From: a virus
Taxonomy: Duplodnaviria; Heunggongvirae; Uroviricota; Caudoviricetes
Reading direction: 5' to 3' (one strand)
DNA: 5,217 nt
IMG/VR virus record: IMGVR_UViG_2711768068_000009
Shown here: in pieces, positions 1 through 5,217 of the stretch
Layout of the letters: each line of letters starts with the position of its first letter
Numbering within the stretch: position 1 is the stretch's first letter
Program-made: the position numbers and the translations under genes
Notes under the pieces: generated by a model
What the model was told of the DNA's origin: nothing
Seen by the model: only the letters and a program-made list of their open reading frames with translations
The model's database searches: none

Positions 1-2
1 AT

Positions 3-593
3 AACGCCTATCGTTTCTGGCGTCGTTGCCGGAGTGACGGACTGGGCAACAGGGTGTTTCTGTTCAAGGGGGATGGACTTCGCCGTGACAGGCTGATTAA
101 CCGAACCTTCCCGGATAATACCGGCAGAAGTGCCCGCCGTGCCAGAGCCAGTGGCGATGTCGCGCTGTGGCTGGTTCAGACGGATGCGTTTAAGGATCGT
201 GTAAATAATGCCCTGTGGCGTGACACACCAGGGCCGAACTATATCCACTTTCCCGACTGGCTGGGGCGGTGGTTTTACGATGAGCTGACCTATGAAGAGC
301 GCGGCAGTGACGGAAAATGGCGAAAACCGGGCAGGGGCGCTAACGAAGCGTTTGACCTGCTGGTTTATGCGGATGCGCTTGCCGTTCTGCATGGTTACGA
401 AAAGATCCGCTGGCCCTCCGCACCGGACTGGGCACAGCGGGAAACGTGGCTCGTCTTCCCGCAGGAGCGTTCTGGTGAAACGGTATCCCCGGAACTGACG
501 GCCGGGGCAGAAAAACGCCGTCGCCGGAAGAAAAAACTGTGGACGGAGCGTGCGGAAGATAATCCATGGATAACATCAGGAGGCTGGTTGTGA
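3..593 (+). CDS. Terminase large subunit (lambda gpA-like), C-terminal part; 5' end lies outside the window
   Basis: Reading frame is open from the window edge (codons from nt 3) to TGA at 591-593. It sits immediately upstream of a gpW-like gene and a lambda-family portal gene, the conserved lambda order A-W-B. Its stop overlaps the next start (GTGA). The family call rests on synteny, not on a recognised motif. Confidence 0.55.
   Translation, partial: NAYRFWRRCRSDGLGNRVFLFKGDGLRRDRLINRTFPDNTGRSARRARASGDVALWLVQTDAFKDRVNNALWRDTPGPNYIHFPDWLGRWFYDELTYEERGSDGKWRKPGRGANEAFDLLVYADALAVLHGYEKIRWPSAPDWAQRETWLVFPQERSGETVSPELTAGAEKRRRRKKKLWTERAEDNPWITSGGWL
578..583 (+). promoter_or_regulatory. Shine-Dalgarno AGGAGG for the gpW-like gene
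   Basis: AGGAGG lies 6 nt upstream of GTG 590, which overlaps the terminase stop codon. Confidence 0.5.
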
Positions 594-802
594 TCACAGA
601 AGAAGCCAGAGAAATGATACAGCGGTACCGTGAAGCGGAAATGGCCGTACTGGAGGGAAAGTCTGTCACCTTCAACGGGCAGCAACTGACGCTGGAAAGC
701 CTTTCTCAGATCCGCGCCGGACGTCAGGAGTGGGAACGCAGGCTTGCCGCGATGGTGAGCCGCAGGCGGGGAAAACCGGGATTTAAACTGGCGAGGTTTT
801 AA
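590..802 (+). CDS. Head-tail joining / head completion protein, lambda gpW family (about 70 aa)
   Basis: The product resembles lambda gpW as I recall it: an L-x-G-K-x-V segment and a C-terminal RRRGKPGF (lambda has RRRGPAGF), at similar length. Preferred start is GTG 590-592, preceded by AGGAGG at 578-583 (6-nt spacer) and overlapping the terminase stop. The ORF track's ATG 566 is an in-frame alternative with a weaker ribosome-binding site. Stop TAA 800-802 overlaps the portal ATG. Confidence 0.7.
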   Translation: MITEEAREMIQRYREAEMAVLEGKSVTFNGQQLTLESLSQIRAGRQEWERRLAAMVSRRRGKPGFKLARF

Positions 803-2949
803 TGGCAATTATTGATGATGTGATCGGCGTGTTTTCCCCCGGGTGGAAAGCAGCCAGACTGCGTTCAAGGGCGTTAATCATGGCCTATGAGGCGGTGAAA
901 CCGACCCGGACACATAAAGCCCGGCGGGAAAATCGCTCTGCTGATCAGCTCAGTAAATACGGTGCGGTTTCCCTGCGGGAGCAGGCCCGTTTTCTGGATA
1001 TCAATCATGACCTGGTGATTGGTGTGTTTGACAAGCTGGAAGAGCGGGTGATTGGTGCCAGGGGAATTATTGTGGAGCCTCAGCCATTACGAAAAAACGG
1101 GGAAATGGCGGCTGAGCTGGCTGCGGATATCCGCCGTTTGTGGGCTGAATGGTCCGTGAGTCCGGATGTGACAGGGCAGTATACCCGTCCTGTGCTTGAA
1201 CGTTTACTGCTGCGGACCTGGCTGCGGGATGGTGAAGTGTTTGCGCAGATGGTCAGTGGTGCGGGAAACGGTCTGGAACGGACGGCAGGAGTGCCATTCT
1301 GGCTTGAGGCGATGGAGCCGGATTTTGTTCCCATGCGCACTGATGAATCCGCCGGACTGAATCAGGGGGTTTTTCTTGATGAGTGGGGAAGACCGAAAAA
1401 ATATCTGGTTTATAAAAATTATCCGGTCAGCGGCCGGCAGAGTGATACGAAAGAAATCGCTGCCGGAAAAATGATCCACCTGAAGTTCACTCGTCGTCTG
1501 CATCAGACGCGAGGCTCATCCATGTTATCGGGGGTGCTGATGCGGATCAGTGCCCTTAAGGAGTATGAGGATGCGGAACTGACAGCGGCGCGTATTGCTG
1601 CGGCGCTGGGACTGTATATCCGTAAAGGTGACGGACAGGACTATGAAGATCCGGGGAGCAAAGAGACCGAGCGGGAAGTCCATATCACCCCGGGTATTAT
1701 TTATGACGATTTGCGCAAGGGCGAGGATATCGGCATGGTCAAATCTGACCGTCCCAATCCCAACCTTGAAACTTTCCGCAACGGCCAGTTGCGTGCAGTG
1801 GCAGCAGGCAGTCGTCTGAGTTTTTCCAGTGCGGCGCGTAACTATAACGGCACCTACAGCGCCCAGCGGCAGGAGTTGGTCGAGTCCACGGATGGTTACC
1901 TGATCCTGCAGGACTGTTTTATTGGCGCGGTAACCCGCCCGGTGTACCGGACATGGCTGAATATGGTGGTTGCGGCAGGTCTGCTGAAAATTCCGGCGGA
2001 TTCATCAGTGCGCATGGGAACAAAATCCGGCTCCATCGCCTCAAGCCAGAATGGCACTCCAGGAGTGCCATTCTGGCTTGAGGCGATGGAGCCGGATTTT
2101 GTTCCCATGCGCACTGATGAATCCGCCGGACTGAATCAGGGGGTTTTTCTTGATGAGTGGGGAAGACCGAAAAAATATCTGGTTTATAAAAATTATCCGG
2201 TCAGCGGCCGGCAGAGTGATACGAAAGAAATCGCTGCCGGAAAAATGATCCACCTGAAGTTCACTCGTCGTCTGCATCAGACGCGAGGCTCATCCATGTT
2301 ATCAGGGGTGCTGATGCGGATCAGTGCCCTTAAGGAGTATGAGGATGCGGAACTGACTGCGGCGCGTATTGCTGCGGCGCTGGGACTGTATATCCGTAAA
2401 GGTGACGGGCAGGACTATGAAGATCCGGGGATCAAAGAAACCGAGCGGGAAGTCAATATCACCCCGGGTATTATTTATGACGATTTGCGCAAGGGCGAGG
2501 ATATCGGCATGGTCAAATCTGACCGTCCCAATCCCAACCTTGAAACTTTCCGCAACGGCCAGTTGCGTGCAGTGGCAGCAGGCAGTCGTCTGAGTTTTTC
2601 CAGTGCGGCGCGTAACTATAACGGCACCTACAGCGCCCAGCGGCAGGAGTTGGTCGAGTCCACGGATGGTTACCTGATCCTGCAGGACTGTTTTATTGGC
2701 GCGGTAACCCGCCCGGTGTACCGGACATGGCTGAATATGGTGGTTGCGGCAGGTCTGCTGAAAATTCCGGCGGATGTGGAGATGAAAACGCTATATAACG
2801 CGACGTATTCCGGTCCGGTGATGCCGTGGATCGACCCGGTTAAGGAAGCTGAAGCCTGGAGAATTCAGATCCGGGGTGGTGCAGCGACAGAATCTGACTG
2901 GGTGCGTGCCGGCGGGCGCAATCCGGATGAGGTCAAACGTACAGAGTGA
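802..2949 (+). CDS. Portal protein, lambda gpB family, aberrant: 715-aa ORF with an internal in-frame 258-codon duplication and a truncated C-terminus
   Basis: ATG 802 follows GAGG at 793-796. The N-terminal region and core show lambda gpB-like segments (RENRSADQLSKYGA...HDLVIGVF; MIHLKFTRRLHQTRG). Residues encoded by 1287..2001 are repeated at 2061..2775, joined by a 20-aa linker encoded by an inverted segment. The ORF ends at TGA 2947-2949, created by the second duplication junction, and lacks the native last 45 residues. Confidence 0.75.
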   Translation: MAIIDDVIGVFSPGWKAARLRSRALIMAYEAVKPTRTHKARRENRSADQLSKYGAVSLREQARFLDINHDLVIGVFDKLEERVIGARGIIVEPQPLRKNGEMAAELAADIRRLWAEWSVSPDVTGQYTRPVLERLLLRTWLRDGEVFAQMVSGAGNGLERTAGVPFWLEAMEPDFVPMRTDESAGLNQGVFLDEWGRPKKYLVYKNYPVSGRQSDTKEIAAGKMIHLKFTRRLHQTRGSSMLSGVLMRISALKEYEDAELTAARIAAALGLYIRKGDGQDYEDPGSKETEREVHITPGIIYDDLRKGEDIGMVKSDRPNPNLETFRNGQLRAVAAGSRLSFSSAARNYNGTYSAQRQELVESTDGYLILQDCFIGAVTRPVYRTWLNMVVAAGLLKIPADSSVRMGTKSGSIASSQNGTPGVPFWLEAMEPDFVPMRTDESAGLNQGVFLDEWGRPKKYLVYKNYPVSGRQSDTKEIAAGKMIHLKFTRRLHQTRGSSMLSGVLMRISALKEYEDAELTAARIAAALGLYIRKGDGQDYEDPGIKETEREVNITPGIIYDDLRKGEDIGMVKSDRPNPNLETFRNGQLRAVAAGSRLSFSSAARNYNGTYSAQRQELVESTDGYLILQDCFIGAVTRPVYRTWLNMVVAAGLLKIPADVEMKTLYNATYSGPVMPWIDPVKEAEAWRIQIRGGAATESDWVRAGGRNPDEVKRTE
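1287..2001. repeat. Direct repeat A, copy 1 (715 bp, portal core)
   Basis: Matches 2061..2775 at a 774-bp offset with 6 mismatches (1530, 1584, 1635, 1658, 1665, 1681), compared by eye. Confidence 0.9.
1992..2130. repeat. Perfect inverted repeat / palindrome, 69-bp arms (1992..2060 and 2062..2130) around a single central base at 2061
   Basis: 1992..2060 is the exact reverse complement of 2062..2130, checked base by base; symmetry breaks at 1991/2131. The left arm is an inverted copy of the start of repeat A. Confidence 0.9.
2061..2775. repeat. Direct repeat A, copy 2 (715 bp, portal core)
   Basis: Near-identical to 1287..2001. The match to the downstream copy continues to 2940. Confidence 0.9.
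2212..2940. repeat. Direct repeat B, copy 1 (729 bp, portal core plus C-terminal region)
   Basis: Matches 2942..3670 at a 730-bp offset with about 8 mismatches. A single unmatched A at 2941 separates the copies. Confidence 0.9.
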
Positions 2950-3670
2950 TACGAAAGAAATCGCTGCCGGAAAAATGATCCACCTGAAGTTCACTCGTCG
3001 TCTGCATCAGACGCGAGGCTCATCCATGTTATCGGGGGTGCTGATGCGGATCAGTGCCCTTAAGGAGTATGAGGATGCGGAACTGACTGCGGCGCGTATT
3101 GCTGCGGCGCTGGGACTGTATATCCGTAAAGGTGACGGACAGGACTATGAAGATCCGGGGAGCAAAGAGACCGAGCGGGAAGTCCATATCACCCCGGGTA
3201 TTATTTATGACGATTTGCGCAAGGGCGAGGATATCGGCATGGTCAAATCTGACCGTCCCAATCCCAACCTTGAAACTTTCCGCAACGGCCAGTTGCGTGC
3301 AGTGGCAGCTGGCAGTCGTCTGAGTTTTTCCAGTGCGGCGCGTAACTATAACGGCACCTACAGCGCCCAGAGGCAGGAGCTGGTCGAGTCCACGGATGGT
3401 TACCTGATCCTGCAGGACTGTTTTATTGGCGCGGTAACCCGCCCGGTGTACCGGACATGGCTGAATATGGTGGTTGCGGCAGGTCTGCTGAAAATTCCGG
3501 CGGATGTGGAGATGAAAACGCTATATAACGCGACGTATTCCGGTCCGGTGATGCCGTGGATCGACCCGGTTAAGGAAGCTGAAGCCTGGAGAATTCAGAT
3601 CCGGGGTGGTGCAGCGACAGAATCTGACTGGGTGCGTGCCGGCGGGCGCAATCCGGATGAGGTCAAACGT
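2942..3670. repeat. Direct repeat B, copy 2 (729 bp)
   Basis: Near-identical to 2212..2940. The 730-bp period is not a multiple of 3, so it shifts the frame. Confidence 0.9.
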
Positions 3671-3740
3671 CGCCGCAAGGCTGAAATTGATGAAAACAGC
3701 AGACTGGGGCTGGTCTTTGATACTGACCCCGTCAACGACA

Positions 3741-3747
3741 AAGGAGG
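3741..3747 (+). promoter_or_regulatory. Shine-Dalgarno AAGGAGG for the prohead protease gene
   Basis: AAGGAGG lies 5 nt upstream of in-frame GTG 3753, inside the 3' end of the portal reading frame. Confidence 0.5.
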
Positions 3748-3752
3748 CAACA

Positions 3753-5217
3753 GTGCCGGAACTGAACAACAGCGTCAGCAGGCCACCGACAGCCAGCATG
3801 AAGAATAAATCCTGGTTCAGGATGCAGGCGGGGGGGCAGGGTGAGGCGGATATTTATATTTATGACGAGATTGGTTTCTGGGGCGTCACCGCGAAGCAGT
3901 TTGTCAGCGATATGAATGCCCTGGGTGATATCACCCACATTAATCTCCACATCAACTCACCGGGTGGCGATGTTTTTGAAGGCATCGCCATTTTTAATGC
4001 CCTGAAAAATCACGGTGCGGCCATTACCGTGTATGTGGATGGCGTTGCCGCCTCGATGGCATCCCTGATTGCGATGGCCGGTGACACGGTCATTATGCCG
4101 GAAAATGCCTTCATGATGATCCATAAACCCTGGGGGATCAGCGGTGGTGATGCGGAGAAAATGCGCACTTATGCCGAACGTCTGGACAAACTTGAGTCGG
4201 TTATGGTGCCGGTATATGCGCAGAAAACCGGAAAAACTACCGATGAAATTGCCGCCATGCTGGAGGATGAGACCTGGATGTCCGGTGCCGAGTGTCTGGC
4301 ACACGGATTTGCAGACCAGGTGACGCCAGCCGTTAAGGCAATGGCATGTATTCAGTCAAAACGTACAGAGGAATTTAAAAAGATGCCGGAATCCATCCGA
4401 AATATGATCACGCAGCCACACAACTGTGCCCCGCATGATACCACAGTGACAATCCCTGCACCGACGGTAACAGAACCATCACCGGTACCGGCAGTGTCTG
4501 AGGAGGTGACCATTCGTGCCCGCGTTATGGCAGAACAGAAAGCCCGCATGTCAGGCATTAACGATCTGTTTGCCATGTTCGGCGGTCGCTATCAGACGCT
4601 TCAGGCACAGTGCGTGGCTGATCCTGACTGTTCGCTGGAAATGGCCCGCGAGCGCCTGCTGAATGAAATGGGTAAGGAATCTTCACCGACCAACAAAAAC
4701 ACACCGGCCCATATTTATGCCGGAAACGGCAATTTTGTGGGGGACGGGATCCGCCAGGCGATGCTGGCCCGTGCCGGATTTGAAAATGTCGAGAAGGATA
4801 ACGCCTATAACGGGATGACCCTGCGTGAATGGGCTCGCATGTCACTGACGGAGCGCGGTATTGGGGTGGCCAGTTATAACCCCATGCAGATGGTCGGGCT
4901 GGCGCTGACGCACAGCACCTCTGATTTTGGCAATATCCTGCTGGATGTGTCGAACAAGGGGCTGATCCAGGGCTGGGAGGAATCAGAAGAAACCTTCCAG
5001 AAGTGGACCCGTAAGGGCCGCCTGTCAGACTTCAAAACAGCGTATCGCGTGGGGATGGGCGGTTTTGGTTCTCTGCGTCAGGTTCGTGAGGGGGCGGAGT
5101 ATAAATACATCACCACCTCAGATCGCAAGGAGACCATTGCGCTGGCCACTTACGGGGAGATTTTCTCCATCACCCGCCAGGCCATTATCAATGATGATCT
5201 GAATATGCTGGTGGACG
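3753..5217 (+). CDS. ClpP-type (peptidase S14-like) prohead maturation protease continuous with a scaffold/major-capsid-like C-terminal region; 3' end lies outside the window
   Basis: One open frame runs from 3552 to the window end with no stop. ClpP-like motifs are present: INSPGGDVF, GVAASMAS (candidate catalytic Ser codon 4053-4055) and MMIHKPWG (candidate His codon 4122-4124). Preferred start is GTG 3753, 5 nt downstream of AAGGAGG (3741-3747); in-frame ATGs at 3798 and 3822 are alternatives. The capsid-like assignment of the part after about 4330 is inference from position and architecture. Confidence 0.75.
   Translation, partial: MPELNNSVSRPPTASMKNKSWFRMQAGGQGEADIYIYDEIGFWGVTAKQFVSDMNALGDITHINLHINSPGGDVFEGIAIFNALKNHGAAITVYVDGVAASMASLIAMAGDTVIMPENAFMMIHKPWGISGGDAEKMRTYAERLDKLESVMVPVYAQKTGKTTDEIAAMLEDETWMSGAECLAHGFADQVTPAVKAMACIQSKRTEEFKKMPESIRNMITQPHNCAPHDTTVTIPAPTVTEPSPVPAVSEEVTIRARVMAEQKARMSGINDLFAMFGGRYQTLQAQCVADPDCSLEMARERLLNEMGKESSPTNKNTPAHIYAGNGNFVGDGIRQAMLARAGFENVEKDNAYNGMTLREWARMSLTERGIGVASYNPMQMVGLALTHSTSDFGNILLDVSNKGLIQGWEESEETFQKWTRKGRLSDFKTAYRVGMGGFGSLRQVREGAEYKYITTSDRKETIALATYGEIFSITRQAIINDDLNMLVD

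What the first reader, a model, noticed from the sequence alone, without database searches (positions are those of the whole stretch)
1287..2775. In-frame 774-bp tandem duplication of the portal core
1287..2001 and 2061..2775 are about 99% identical direct repeats. The 774-bp offset is a multiple of 3, so the portal frame reads through both copies and the 59-bp inverted spacer, which encodes a stop-free 20-aa linker (SSVRMGTKSGSIASSQNGTP). The result is a portal with its central 238 residues duplicated. Portal dodecamers have tightly constrained geometry, so such a protein is unlikely to assemble.
Basis: seen in the sequence. Interest (0 to 1): 0.5.

Follow-up and report, generated by a model that had tools for sequence, protein, structure and literature searches.

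The report
Chimeric triplicated phage portal gene
The "duplicated portal" is one part of a three-breakpoint scramble of an ordinary single-copy portal gene from a Shiga-toxin-type E. coli prophage; it wrecks the gene and is most likely an amplification or assembly artefact, not biology.

Summary
The repeat is real in the sequence. 1287-2001 and 2061-2775 are 99.2% identical at an offset of 774, the frame stays open, and the 20-aa linker reads as reported. The finding describes only part of the structure. There is a third copy (2942-3670, offset 730, not a multiple of 3). The 59-nt spacer is half of a perfect 139-nt palindrome (1992-2130). The 715-aa ORF stops 9 nt after the second junction and lacks portal residues 456-500.

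All public relatives (12 phage records, about 535 E. coli records) have one 1503-nt, 500-aa portal gene. The window equals that native 3713 bp plus 1504 bp (774+730). None of the three junction sequences occurs in the collections searched.

Junction 1 sits on the only spaced 10-nt inverted repeat in the gene, which is the signature of a polymerase strand switch. The palindrome centre has no natural inverted repeat. Junction 2 has no homology and one extra A.

The three copies are different patchworks of natural prophage alleles, and 7 of their 9 differences are synonymous. They therefore did not diverge in place.

Most likely this is a template-switch chimera (in vitro) whose consensus was blended with reads from paralogous prophages. 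A real but dead in-vivo rearrangement is the main rival. A working portal with a duplicated core is very unlikely.

The parts
1..593 (+). 3' part of the terminase large-subunit gene (cut by the window start)
   Evidence: ORF 54-593. It is collinear with the annotated 'phage terminase large subunit' that ends at the equivalent base in L001 and L002.
590..802 (+). Small head-completion gene (70 aa; annotated 'hypothetical protein', or head-to-tail joining protein W in phage ASU11)
   Evidence: Annotation of the collinear loci; ORF 566-802.
802..2001 (+). Portal gene, native codons 1-400, up to breakpoint 1
   Evidence: Collinear with native portal genes, 6 mismatches over 1-2001 against O157 strain 2571. 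TIGR01539 profile positions 2-378.
1287..2001 (+). Copy A of the repeated segment. Over 1438-2001 its allele is 100% identical to a common O157:H7 allele (TR01, 2014C-4423 and others).
1347..1356 (.). ATCCGCCGGA, left member of the only spaced exact 10-nt inverted repeat inside the native portal gene. It is the acceptor site of the strand switch.
   Evidence: pair 1347/1992.
1992..2001 (.). TCCGGCGGAT, right member of the 10-nt inverted repeat. This is junction 1 microhomology, shared by the forward copy and the inverted arm.
2002..2060 (-). Inverted 59-nt segment, the reverse complement of 1288-1346. Read in the portal frame it gives the 20-aa 'linker'.
   Evidence: local BLAST 1992-2060 against native minus strand, 100%.
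1992..2130 (.). Perfect 139-nt palindrome (69-nt arms, centre A at 2061), the U-turn junction. There is no natural inverted repeat at its centre in native genes.
   Evidence: I2; hairpin -98.3 kcal/mol, z = -23; native sequence at the centre.
2061..2940 (+). Copy B = native 1287-2166 (portal codons about 163-455). OkiPb01678-type allele at 1530-1681 (native coordinates), TR01-type at 1806-1876.
   Evidence: TIGR01539 positions 133-438.
2941..2941 (+). Junction 2: one extra A between native 2166 and native 1438. No microhomology. It shifts the frame by +1.
2947..2949 (+). TGA that ends the 715-aa ORF, created by the frameshift at junction 2
   Evidence...NPDEVKRTE*.
2942..3808 (+). Copy C = native 1438-2304: portal codons 213-500 and the native stop, in a different frame from ORF 802-2949. 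Patchwork allele with one private base (native 1867A, window 3371).
   Evidence: TIGR01539 positions 190-457.
3798..5217 (+). 5' part of the ClpP-like prohead protease / major capsid fusion gene (runs off the window). It overlaps the portal stop by 11 nt, as in native loci.
   Evidence: Annotation of L001, L003 and L009 mapped to the window (+1504). Its differences from natural alleles are mostly at third codon positions.

Best explanation
The window is the head-gene module (terminase, gpW-like gene, portal, protease/capsid fusion) of a lambdoid, Shiga-toxin-phage-type E. coli prophage. Its normally single 1503-nt portal gene has been scrambled by three consecutive breakpoints.

(1) At native base 2001 the sequence switches to the opposite strand at 1356, across the gene's only spaced 10-nt inverted repeat.
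(2) After 59 new inverted bases it makes a U-turn at 1288/1287 and runs forward again. This creates a perfect 139-nt palindrome and the 774-nt 'in-frame duplication'.
(3) At native 2166 it jumps back to 1438 with one extra A. This creates a third, out-of-frame copy.

The result encodes no functional portal.

I infer that a polymerase made this structure by template switching on one DNA molecule, most probably in vitro (strand-displacement or whole-genome amplification, or library preparation). I also infer that the contig's bases are a consensus blended with reads from other, paralogous prophage portal alleles in the same sample. If so, the structure is an artefact and not a stable part of a genome.

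Shown: the anatomy, the single-copy native state, the uniqueness of the junctions, and the allele patchwork. Inferred: the in-vitro origin and the consensus blending.
For: Native state. Every relative spans 3713 bp against the window's 5217, a difference of 1504 = 774 + 730. This holds for 12 phage records and 535 E. coli records covering at least 80% of the window. Annotated portal genes are 1503 nt. Removing the extra DNA from the window gives a 500-aa protein with 1 difference from WP_000974563.

Uniqueness. The sequences of J1 and J2 are absent from the viral, genome and metagenome contig collections, and the palindrome centre is absent from viral contigs. The ORF products are not on record. 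No complete E. coli or phage record aligns collinearly across the junctions.

Polymerase signature. J1 lies exactly on the only spaced exact 10-nt inverted repeat within the portal gene. Strand-displacing polymerases switch strands at such short inverted repeats and make hairpins (PMC9484634). Whole-genome amplification produces palindromic chimeras that map to one locus and show up in assemblies as artefactual inverted duplications (PMC6218980). The inverted arm, base 1287 and the first base of copy B all carry the same rare allele, 1287A, found in only one record of the E. coli collection. So the fold-back was intramolecular.

Composite consensus. The three copies differ at 9 sites, of which 7 are synonymous and 8 are known natural polymorphisms. 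Copy A equals the TR01 allele at 100%. Copy B is OkiPb01678-type at 1530-1681 and TR01-type afterwards. Copy C switches allele type several times. Up to 4 copies of this portal occur per E. coli genome.

Instability in vivo. A perfect 139-nt palindrome (-98 kcal/mol) and 560-730-nt direct repeats would be unstable in E. coli. SbcCD and slipped mispairing act on inverted repeats of this size (PMC11754738). That leaves no time for 4-5 later gene-conversion events.

No function. The second junction is out of frame, and the long ORF lacks profile positions 439-457.
Against: No reads, depth data or library information are available, so the in-vitro origin is an inference. The same junction types (microhomology strand switch, U-turn, back-jump) also arise in living cells (PMC4417113, PMC4689423). 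Intramolecular template switching alone does not explain the different alleles, so a second process (consensus blending or paralogue cross-talk) has to be assumed. The right flank is simply an unsampled natural allele and shows no sign of chimerism. Natural rearrangements of this same head module do exist, for example the truncated terminase next to a second capsid gene in strain 2014C-4423.
Confidence: 0.66

Rival explanations
1. Real in-vivo rearrangement. A stalled replication fork in a prophage, or in replicating phage DNA, underwent serial template switching (U-turn / MMBIR-FoSTeS type, giving a tandem-inversion-duplication-like product). This left a dead portal gene in a defective prophage or in a dead-end phage molecule. 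The allele differences came from switching among, or gene conversion with, co-resident paralogous prophages.
For: J1 uses a 10-nt inverted microhomology, as in replication U-turns and TID or DUP-TRP/INV-DUP junctions. The segment 1288-1356 is present as forward, inverted, forward copies. STEC genomes carry up to 4 related portal genes that could donate alleles. Defective and rearranged versions of this module occur naturally.
Against: The palindrome centre has no natural inverted repeat, which snap-back models need. E. coli attacks perfect palindromes of this size, and long direct repeats recombine out, yet 4-5 separate allele patches would have had to accumulate afterwards. No other genome, phage or metagenome contig carries any of the junctions. 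Nothing would select for keeping a broken portal.
Confidence: 0.22
2. Purely computational misassembly. No chimeric molecule ever existed, and the assembler walked three times through a collapsed repeat formed by paralogous prophage portal genes.
For: Three different allele patchworks lie in one contig. Every site that is polymorphic among the seven natural alleles in 1500-1900 is also split among the three passes. This gene has several paralogues per genome.
Against: A graph or overlap assembler needs shared sequence of about k-1 bases to join segments. J1 shares only 10 nt, on opposite strands, and J2 shares none and has an inserted base. The 59-nt inverted insert and the exact palindrome are not predicted. 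The copies share exact runs of 221-320 nt, so the contig is not a simple unitig at k of 141 or less.
Confidence: 0.08
3. Functional novelty. The 715-aa protein with a duplicated portal core is expressed and used, either as a variant portal or as a dominant-negative assembly poison against superinfecting phages.
For: The frame is open across both copies, and the ORF keeps the native start and its upstream gene context.
Against: The in-frame offset is a 1-in-3 chance event, and the next junction is out of frame. The linker is antisense sequence that is stop-free by chance (56% of such windows are). The ORF lacks the portal C-terminus. The product is not on record in the 153-billion-gene index or elsewhere. 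No intact portal gene remains in the module.
Confidence: 0.02

Closest known systems
Lambda-family portal protein (TIGR01539 portal_lambda / Pfam PF05136 Phage_portal_2) of Stx-converting lambdoid phages, e.g. CP-1639, Stx2_95, VT1-Sakai, O157:H7 prophages
   Same: 99% nucleotide identity and the same gene order: terminase, small gpW-like gene, portal, ClpP-protease/capsid fusion. After deduplication the window encodes a 500-aa portal with 1 substitution relative to WP_000974563.
   Different: Native genes are single-copy, 1503 nt. The window carries three overlapping partial copies, an inverted 59-nt insert and a frameshift.
Palindromic or inverted chimeras from whole-genome (multiple-displacement) amplification and other strand-displacement reactions (PMC6218980, PMC9484634)
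   Same: A strand switch at a short inverted repeat, hairpin or palindrome formation, all pieces mapping to one small locus, and several events in one molecule.
   Different: The inverted piece here is only 69 nt, whereas long-read WGA palindromes are usually kilobases long. The library type of this sample is unknown. Allele patchwork is not part of that artefact and needs a second cause.
Tandem inversion duplication (Salmonella; Kugelberg et al. 2010, as cited in PMC4689423 and PMC4417113), human DUP-TRP/INV-DUP, replication U-turn inversions, MMBIR/FoSTeS
   Same: A forward-inverted-forward arrangement of 1288-1356 nested in a larger direct duplication. There is microhomology at one inversion junction, and the breakpoints are clustered.
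   Different: One inversion junction has no underlying natural inverted repeat. The copies are not the same allele. The structure has not been shown in genomic DNA, and nothing would select for amplifying it.

Membership tests
Lambda-family portal protein (TIGR01539 / PF05136) | Sequence matches the family profile above the curated cut-off | tested here: met
   TIGR01539 640.5 bits (cut-off 172.7) and PF05136 442 bits (cut-off 32.9) for the 715-aa ORF.
Lambda-family portal protein (TIGR01539 / PF05136) | One continuous pass through the whole profile (native protein: positions 2-457 once) | tested here: not met
   The 715-aa ORF covers 2-378 and then 133-438 and lacks 439-457. The third piece (190-457) is in another frame. 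The native 500-aa protein covers 2-457 once.
Lambda-family portal protein (TIGR01539 / PF05136) | Gene sits between the terminase/gpW-like genes and the prohead protease/capsid gene | tested here: met
   Collinear with annotated loci L001, L002, L003 and L009.
Amplification (MDA/WGA-type) template-switch chimera | Inverted junction at a short inverted repeat or microhomology of the template | tested here: met
   J1 lies on the only spaced exact 10-nt inverted repeat of the portal gene.
Amplification (MDA/WGA-type) template-switch chimera | Palindromic segment whose arms map to the same locus | tested here: met
   Arms 1992-2060 and 2062-2130 are both copies of native 1288-1356.
Amplification (MDA/WGA-type) template-switch chimera | The sample was amplified, and junction reads are rare relative to flank depth | not testable with these tools
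   No reads or metadata are available. The source contig was not found.
Tandem inversion duplication / DUP-TRP/INV-DUP (in vivo) | Central inverted copy flanked by direct copies | tested here: met
   1288-1356 forward, 1992-2060 inverted, 2062-2130 forward.
Tandem inversion duplication / DUP-TRP/INV-DUP (in vivo) | Both inversion junctions derive from short natural inverted repeats (snap-back sites) | tested here: not met
   J1 does (10 nt). The palindrome centre at 2061 has no natural inverted repeat: native GGACGGC(A/G)GGAGTGCC.
Tandem inversion duplication / DUP-TRP/INV-DUP (in vivo) | The copies derive from one parental sequence | tested here: not met
   Copies A, B and C are different patchworks of natural alleles.
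Collapsed-paralogue misassembly | More than one natural allele combined in one contig | tested here: met
   TR01-type and OkiPb01678-type bases are mixed within B and C.
Collapsed-paralogue misassembly | Joins occur through shared sequence of at least about k-1 bases | tested here: not met
   J1 has a 10-nt inverted overlap. J2 has no overlap and one inserted base.
Diversity-generating retroelement (template/variable repeat pair) | Differences between the repeats are confined to adenines of one copy, with a reverse transcriptase nearby | tested here: not met
   The A/B differences are G>A, A>T, A>G, G>T, G>A and C>A. The window holds only terminase, gpW-like, portal and protease/capsid genes.

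The most novel reading that the evidence does not exclude
The structure is a genuine in-vivo product. It would be a snapshot of serial replication template switching (strand switch at a 10-nt inverted repeat, U-turn, back-jump) inside the portal gene of a Shiga-toxin-type prophage, with sequence input from co-resident paralogous prophages. That would make it a bacterial or phage counterpart of DUP-TRP/INV-DUP complex rearrangements and a route by which such prophages become defective.
Probability: 0.2. Interest if true: 0.3.

Novelty: not a real feature. Interest (0 to 1): 0.1.

Why it matters
Mostly as a caution. An apparently elegant "in-frame duplicated portal" disappears once the whole repeat structure, the native single-copy gene and the allele content of each copy are examined. 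Chimeras like this can inflate gene catalogues with oversized phage structural proteins.

Three simple checks flag them without access to reads:
- extra length equal to the sum of the repeat offsets when compared with relatives;
- a junction sitting on a short inverted repeat, followed by a perfect palindrome;
- repeat copies that carry different natural alleles.

If the structure did exist in a cell, it would only document one more way a prophage head module is inactivated. That kind of event is already known.

Tried and rejected
1. Finding the source contig. Exact look-ups of the 715-aa, 310-aa and 294-aa ORF products found nothing. Exact scans for J1 and J2 in the viral, genome and metagenome contigs, and for the palindrome centre in viral contigs, found nothing. 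Sample type and sequencing method therefore stay unknown.

2. Copy differences as sequencing errors. Rejected: there are no indels, 7 of 9 differences are synonymous, and 8 of 9 are known natural polymorphisms.

3. PNUSAE008512 as the parent. It is the only record with the rare 1287A. Rejected: it differs at 84 sites in the right flank.

4. Right flank as a chimeric consensus. Not supported. It best matches the other lineage at only 98.6%, but its differences are mainly third-position and include a block absent from all four alleles compared. It looks like an ordinary unsampled allele and does not help decide between the explanations.

5. Extra A at the palindrome centre. I considered that the central A (2061), like the A at J2, was a non-templated addition. 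Since 1287A exists as a natural allele, the simpler reading is that it is templated.

6. DGR-type repeat. Rejected: the mismatches are not adenine-specific and there is no reverse transcriptase.

7. Read-through of a small circle or a SMRTbell. Rejected by inference from the anatomy: the periods differ (774 and 730) and the inverted piece is only 69 nt.

8. Structure prediction and large homology searches were not run, because the answer does not depend on them.
Full report
**Observation.** The repeat finder and a base-by-base offset comparison confirm the repeat. Window 1287-2001 and 2061-2775 are direct repeats of 715 nt with 6 mismatches (99.2%), at an offset of 774, which is a multiple of 3. 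ORF 802-2949 is 715 aa and reads ...KIPAD-SSVRMGTKSGSIASSQNGTP-GVPFWLEAM... across the spacer. The spacer 2002-2060 is the reverse complement of 1288-1346. What the finding describes is therefore in the sequence, and it is far beyond chance.

**What the finding left out.** Copy B continues past 2775 to 2940. At 2942 a third copy begins (2942-3670 matches 2212-2940 at offset 730, and 1438-2001 at offset 1504). Because 730 is not a multiple of 3, the long ORF hits a TGA at 2947-2949. The real C-terminal part of the portal (codons 213-500, TIGR01539 positions 190-457) lies in another frame at 2942-3808. The "spacer" is one arm of a perfect palindrome. 1992-2060 is the exact reverse complement of both 1288-1356 and 2062-2130, with a single central base at 2061. 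As single-stranded DNA it folds into a hairpin of -98 kcal/mol, z = -23.

**Native state.** The window is 98-99% identical to Stx-converting and related lambdoid phages (CP-1639, Stx2_95, VT1-Sakai and others) and to prophages in hundreds of E. coli genomes. In every one of them the matching stretch is 3713 bp. The window is 5217 bp, and the excess of 1504 equals 774 + 730. The annotated gene order is terminase large subunit, a 70-aa gene, a 1503-nt portal gene, then a ClpP-like prohead protease/major capsid fusion. Splicing window 802-2001 + 2776-2940 + 3671-3808 gives exactly 1503 nt. The product is a 500-aa protein with one substitution relative to the annotated portal WP_000974563.

**Junction anatomy.**
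- *J1.* The forward sequence runs to native 2001, then continues as the reverse complement from 1356 downward. The 10 bases TCCGGCGGAT (1992-2001) are shared, because the native gene contains ATCCGCCGGA at 1347-1356. This is the only spaced exact 10-nt inverted repeat inside the portal gene. A random join would not land on it, so the switch was guided by base pairing.
- *Palindrome centre.* The inverted run stops at 1288 and forward sequence restarts at 1287. Native sequence has no inverted repeat there, so this is a blunt U-turn.
- *J2.* Native 2166 is followed by one extra A and then native 1438, with no microhomology.

**Uniqueness.** Exact scans for J1 and J2 in the viral, genome and metagenome contig collections, and for the palindrome centre in viral contigs, returned nothing. 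The 715-aa product and two versions of the ORF spanning J2 are not on record. No complete E. coli genome or phage record aligns collinearly across the junctions.

**Allele content of the copies.** The three copies differ at 9 sites with no indels. Seven of the 9 are synonymous. Eight of the 9 are polymorphisms seen with the same bases in natural alleles.
- Copy A (1438-2001) is 100% identical to a common O157:H7 allele.
- Copy B carries the OkiPb01678/HCP4S3_I4-type bases at 1530, 1584, 1635, 1658, 1665 and 1681, then TR01-type bases at 1806 and 1876. Its best natural match is 99.6%.
- Copy C switches type several times and has one private synonymous base, native 1867A. Its best natural match is 99.5%.

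These differences arose under purifying selection in separate, working portal genes. They are not errors and they did not diverge in place. In contrast, base 1287, the inverted arm and the first base of copy B share the rare 1287A allele, which is found in only one record of the E. coli collection. The fold-back itself therefore happened on a single molecule.

**Mechanism.** The J1 signature is that of a polymerase whose nascent 3' end re-anneals to a short inverted repeat on the other strand.
- *In vitro.* This is documented for strand-displacing polymerases, which then generate hairpins (PMC9484634). Whole-genome amplification produces palindromic chimeras that map to one locus and appear in assemblies as artefactual inverted duplications (PMC6218980).
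- *In vivo.* Comparable products are known: replication U-turn inversions with microhomology (PMC4417113), and tandem inversion duplications, DUP-TRP/INV-DUP, ODIRA and MMBIR/FoSTeS (PMC4689423).

I favour an artefact for four reasons.
1. The copies carry different allele patchworks. For a real single event, that would need 4-5 later gene-conversion events.
2. The structure that would have to survive that long contains a perfect 139-nt palindrome and 560-730-nt direct repeats. Both are unstable in E. coli. SbcCD and slipped mispairing act on inverted repeats of about this size (PMC11754738), and the instability of long direct repeats is established knowledge. Nothing would select for keeping it.
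3. The palindrome centre lacks the natural inverted repeat that in-vivo snap-back models need.
4. Nothing like it occurs in any other record.

The allele patchwork is best explained by consensus building or polishing with reads from the several paralogous prophage portal genes that such strains carry, up to 4 per genome.

A purely computational misassembly is less likely. An assembler cannot join segments through a 10-nt inverted overlap, or through no overlap plus an inserted base. The copies also share exact runs of 221-320 nt.

**Protein-level reading.** The open frame through copy A, the spacer and copy B is a 1-in-3 accident. The linker is antisense sequence, and 56% of 20-codon antisense windows of this gene are stop-free. 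The ORF lacks the portal C-terminus, and no intact portal gene remains.

**Flanks.** The left flank (1-1286) is 99.9% identical to common O157-type prophages. The right flank (3671-5217) has no close match: the best is 98.6%, to the other lineage. Its differences are mostly at third codon positions and include a block absent from the four alleles compared. It is an ordinary unsampled mosaic allele and does not bear on whether the structure is an artefact.

**Verdict.**
- Best explanation: a non-functional three-breakpoint template-switch chimera, most likely made in vitro and blended with paralogue reads (0.66).
- Main rival: a real in-vivo serial template switch in a defective prophage (0.22).
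- Pure misassembly: 0.08.
- Functional duplicated portal: 0.02.

Read mapping, junction depth and outward-facing PCR on unamplified DNA would decide between them. Interest is low.

Noticed in passing
L010:1-3193 (E. coli 2014C-4423, NZ_CP027454.1): In this natural genome the terminase gene of the same module is annotated as incomplete (N-terminus missing). It is preceded by a second ClpP-protease/major-capsid fusion gene. This looks like a natural prophage-prophage rearrangement in the head module.
   Followed up: no
L008:1-5438 (E. coli PNUSAE008512, NZ_CP104649.1): This is the only record in the E. coli collection carrying the rare 1287A allele. Both its terminase and its protease/capsid genes are annotated as frameshifted pseudogenes. 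The cause could be a decaying prophage or assembly indel errors.
   Followed up: partly
window 4649-4685: Seven consecutive variable sites in the protease/capsid fusion gene, all at third codon positions, carry bases absent from the four natural alleles compared. This is a short mosaic patch from an unsampled lineage.
   Followed up: partly
window 1-2001 versus 3671-5217: The left part is O157/TR01-type (99.9%). The right part is closest to the HCP4S3_I4/OkiPb lineage, at only 98.6%. Lineage affinity therefore changes across the rearranged region. This could be natural mosaicism or part of the chimerism.
   Followed up: partly
window 1080-1340 (-) and 1896-2114 (-): Two minus-strand ORFs begin with the same peptide, MRMGTKSGSIASSQNGTP. 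This is a by-product of the inverted copy, and the same peptide reappears in the plus-strand linker. It is not evidence of a gene.
   Followed up: yes
window 3798-3808: The portal stop and the start of the protease/capsid fusion gene overlap by 11 nt, as in all native loci. The third copy therefore preserves the native gene junction.
   Followed up: yes
window 3922-3937 (native 2418-2433): A local exact palindrome of about 16 nt in the native protease/capsid gene. It is the longest local inverted repeat in the module. No role was examined.
   Followed up: no
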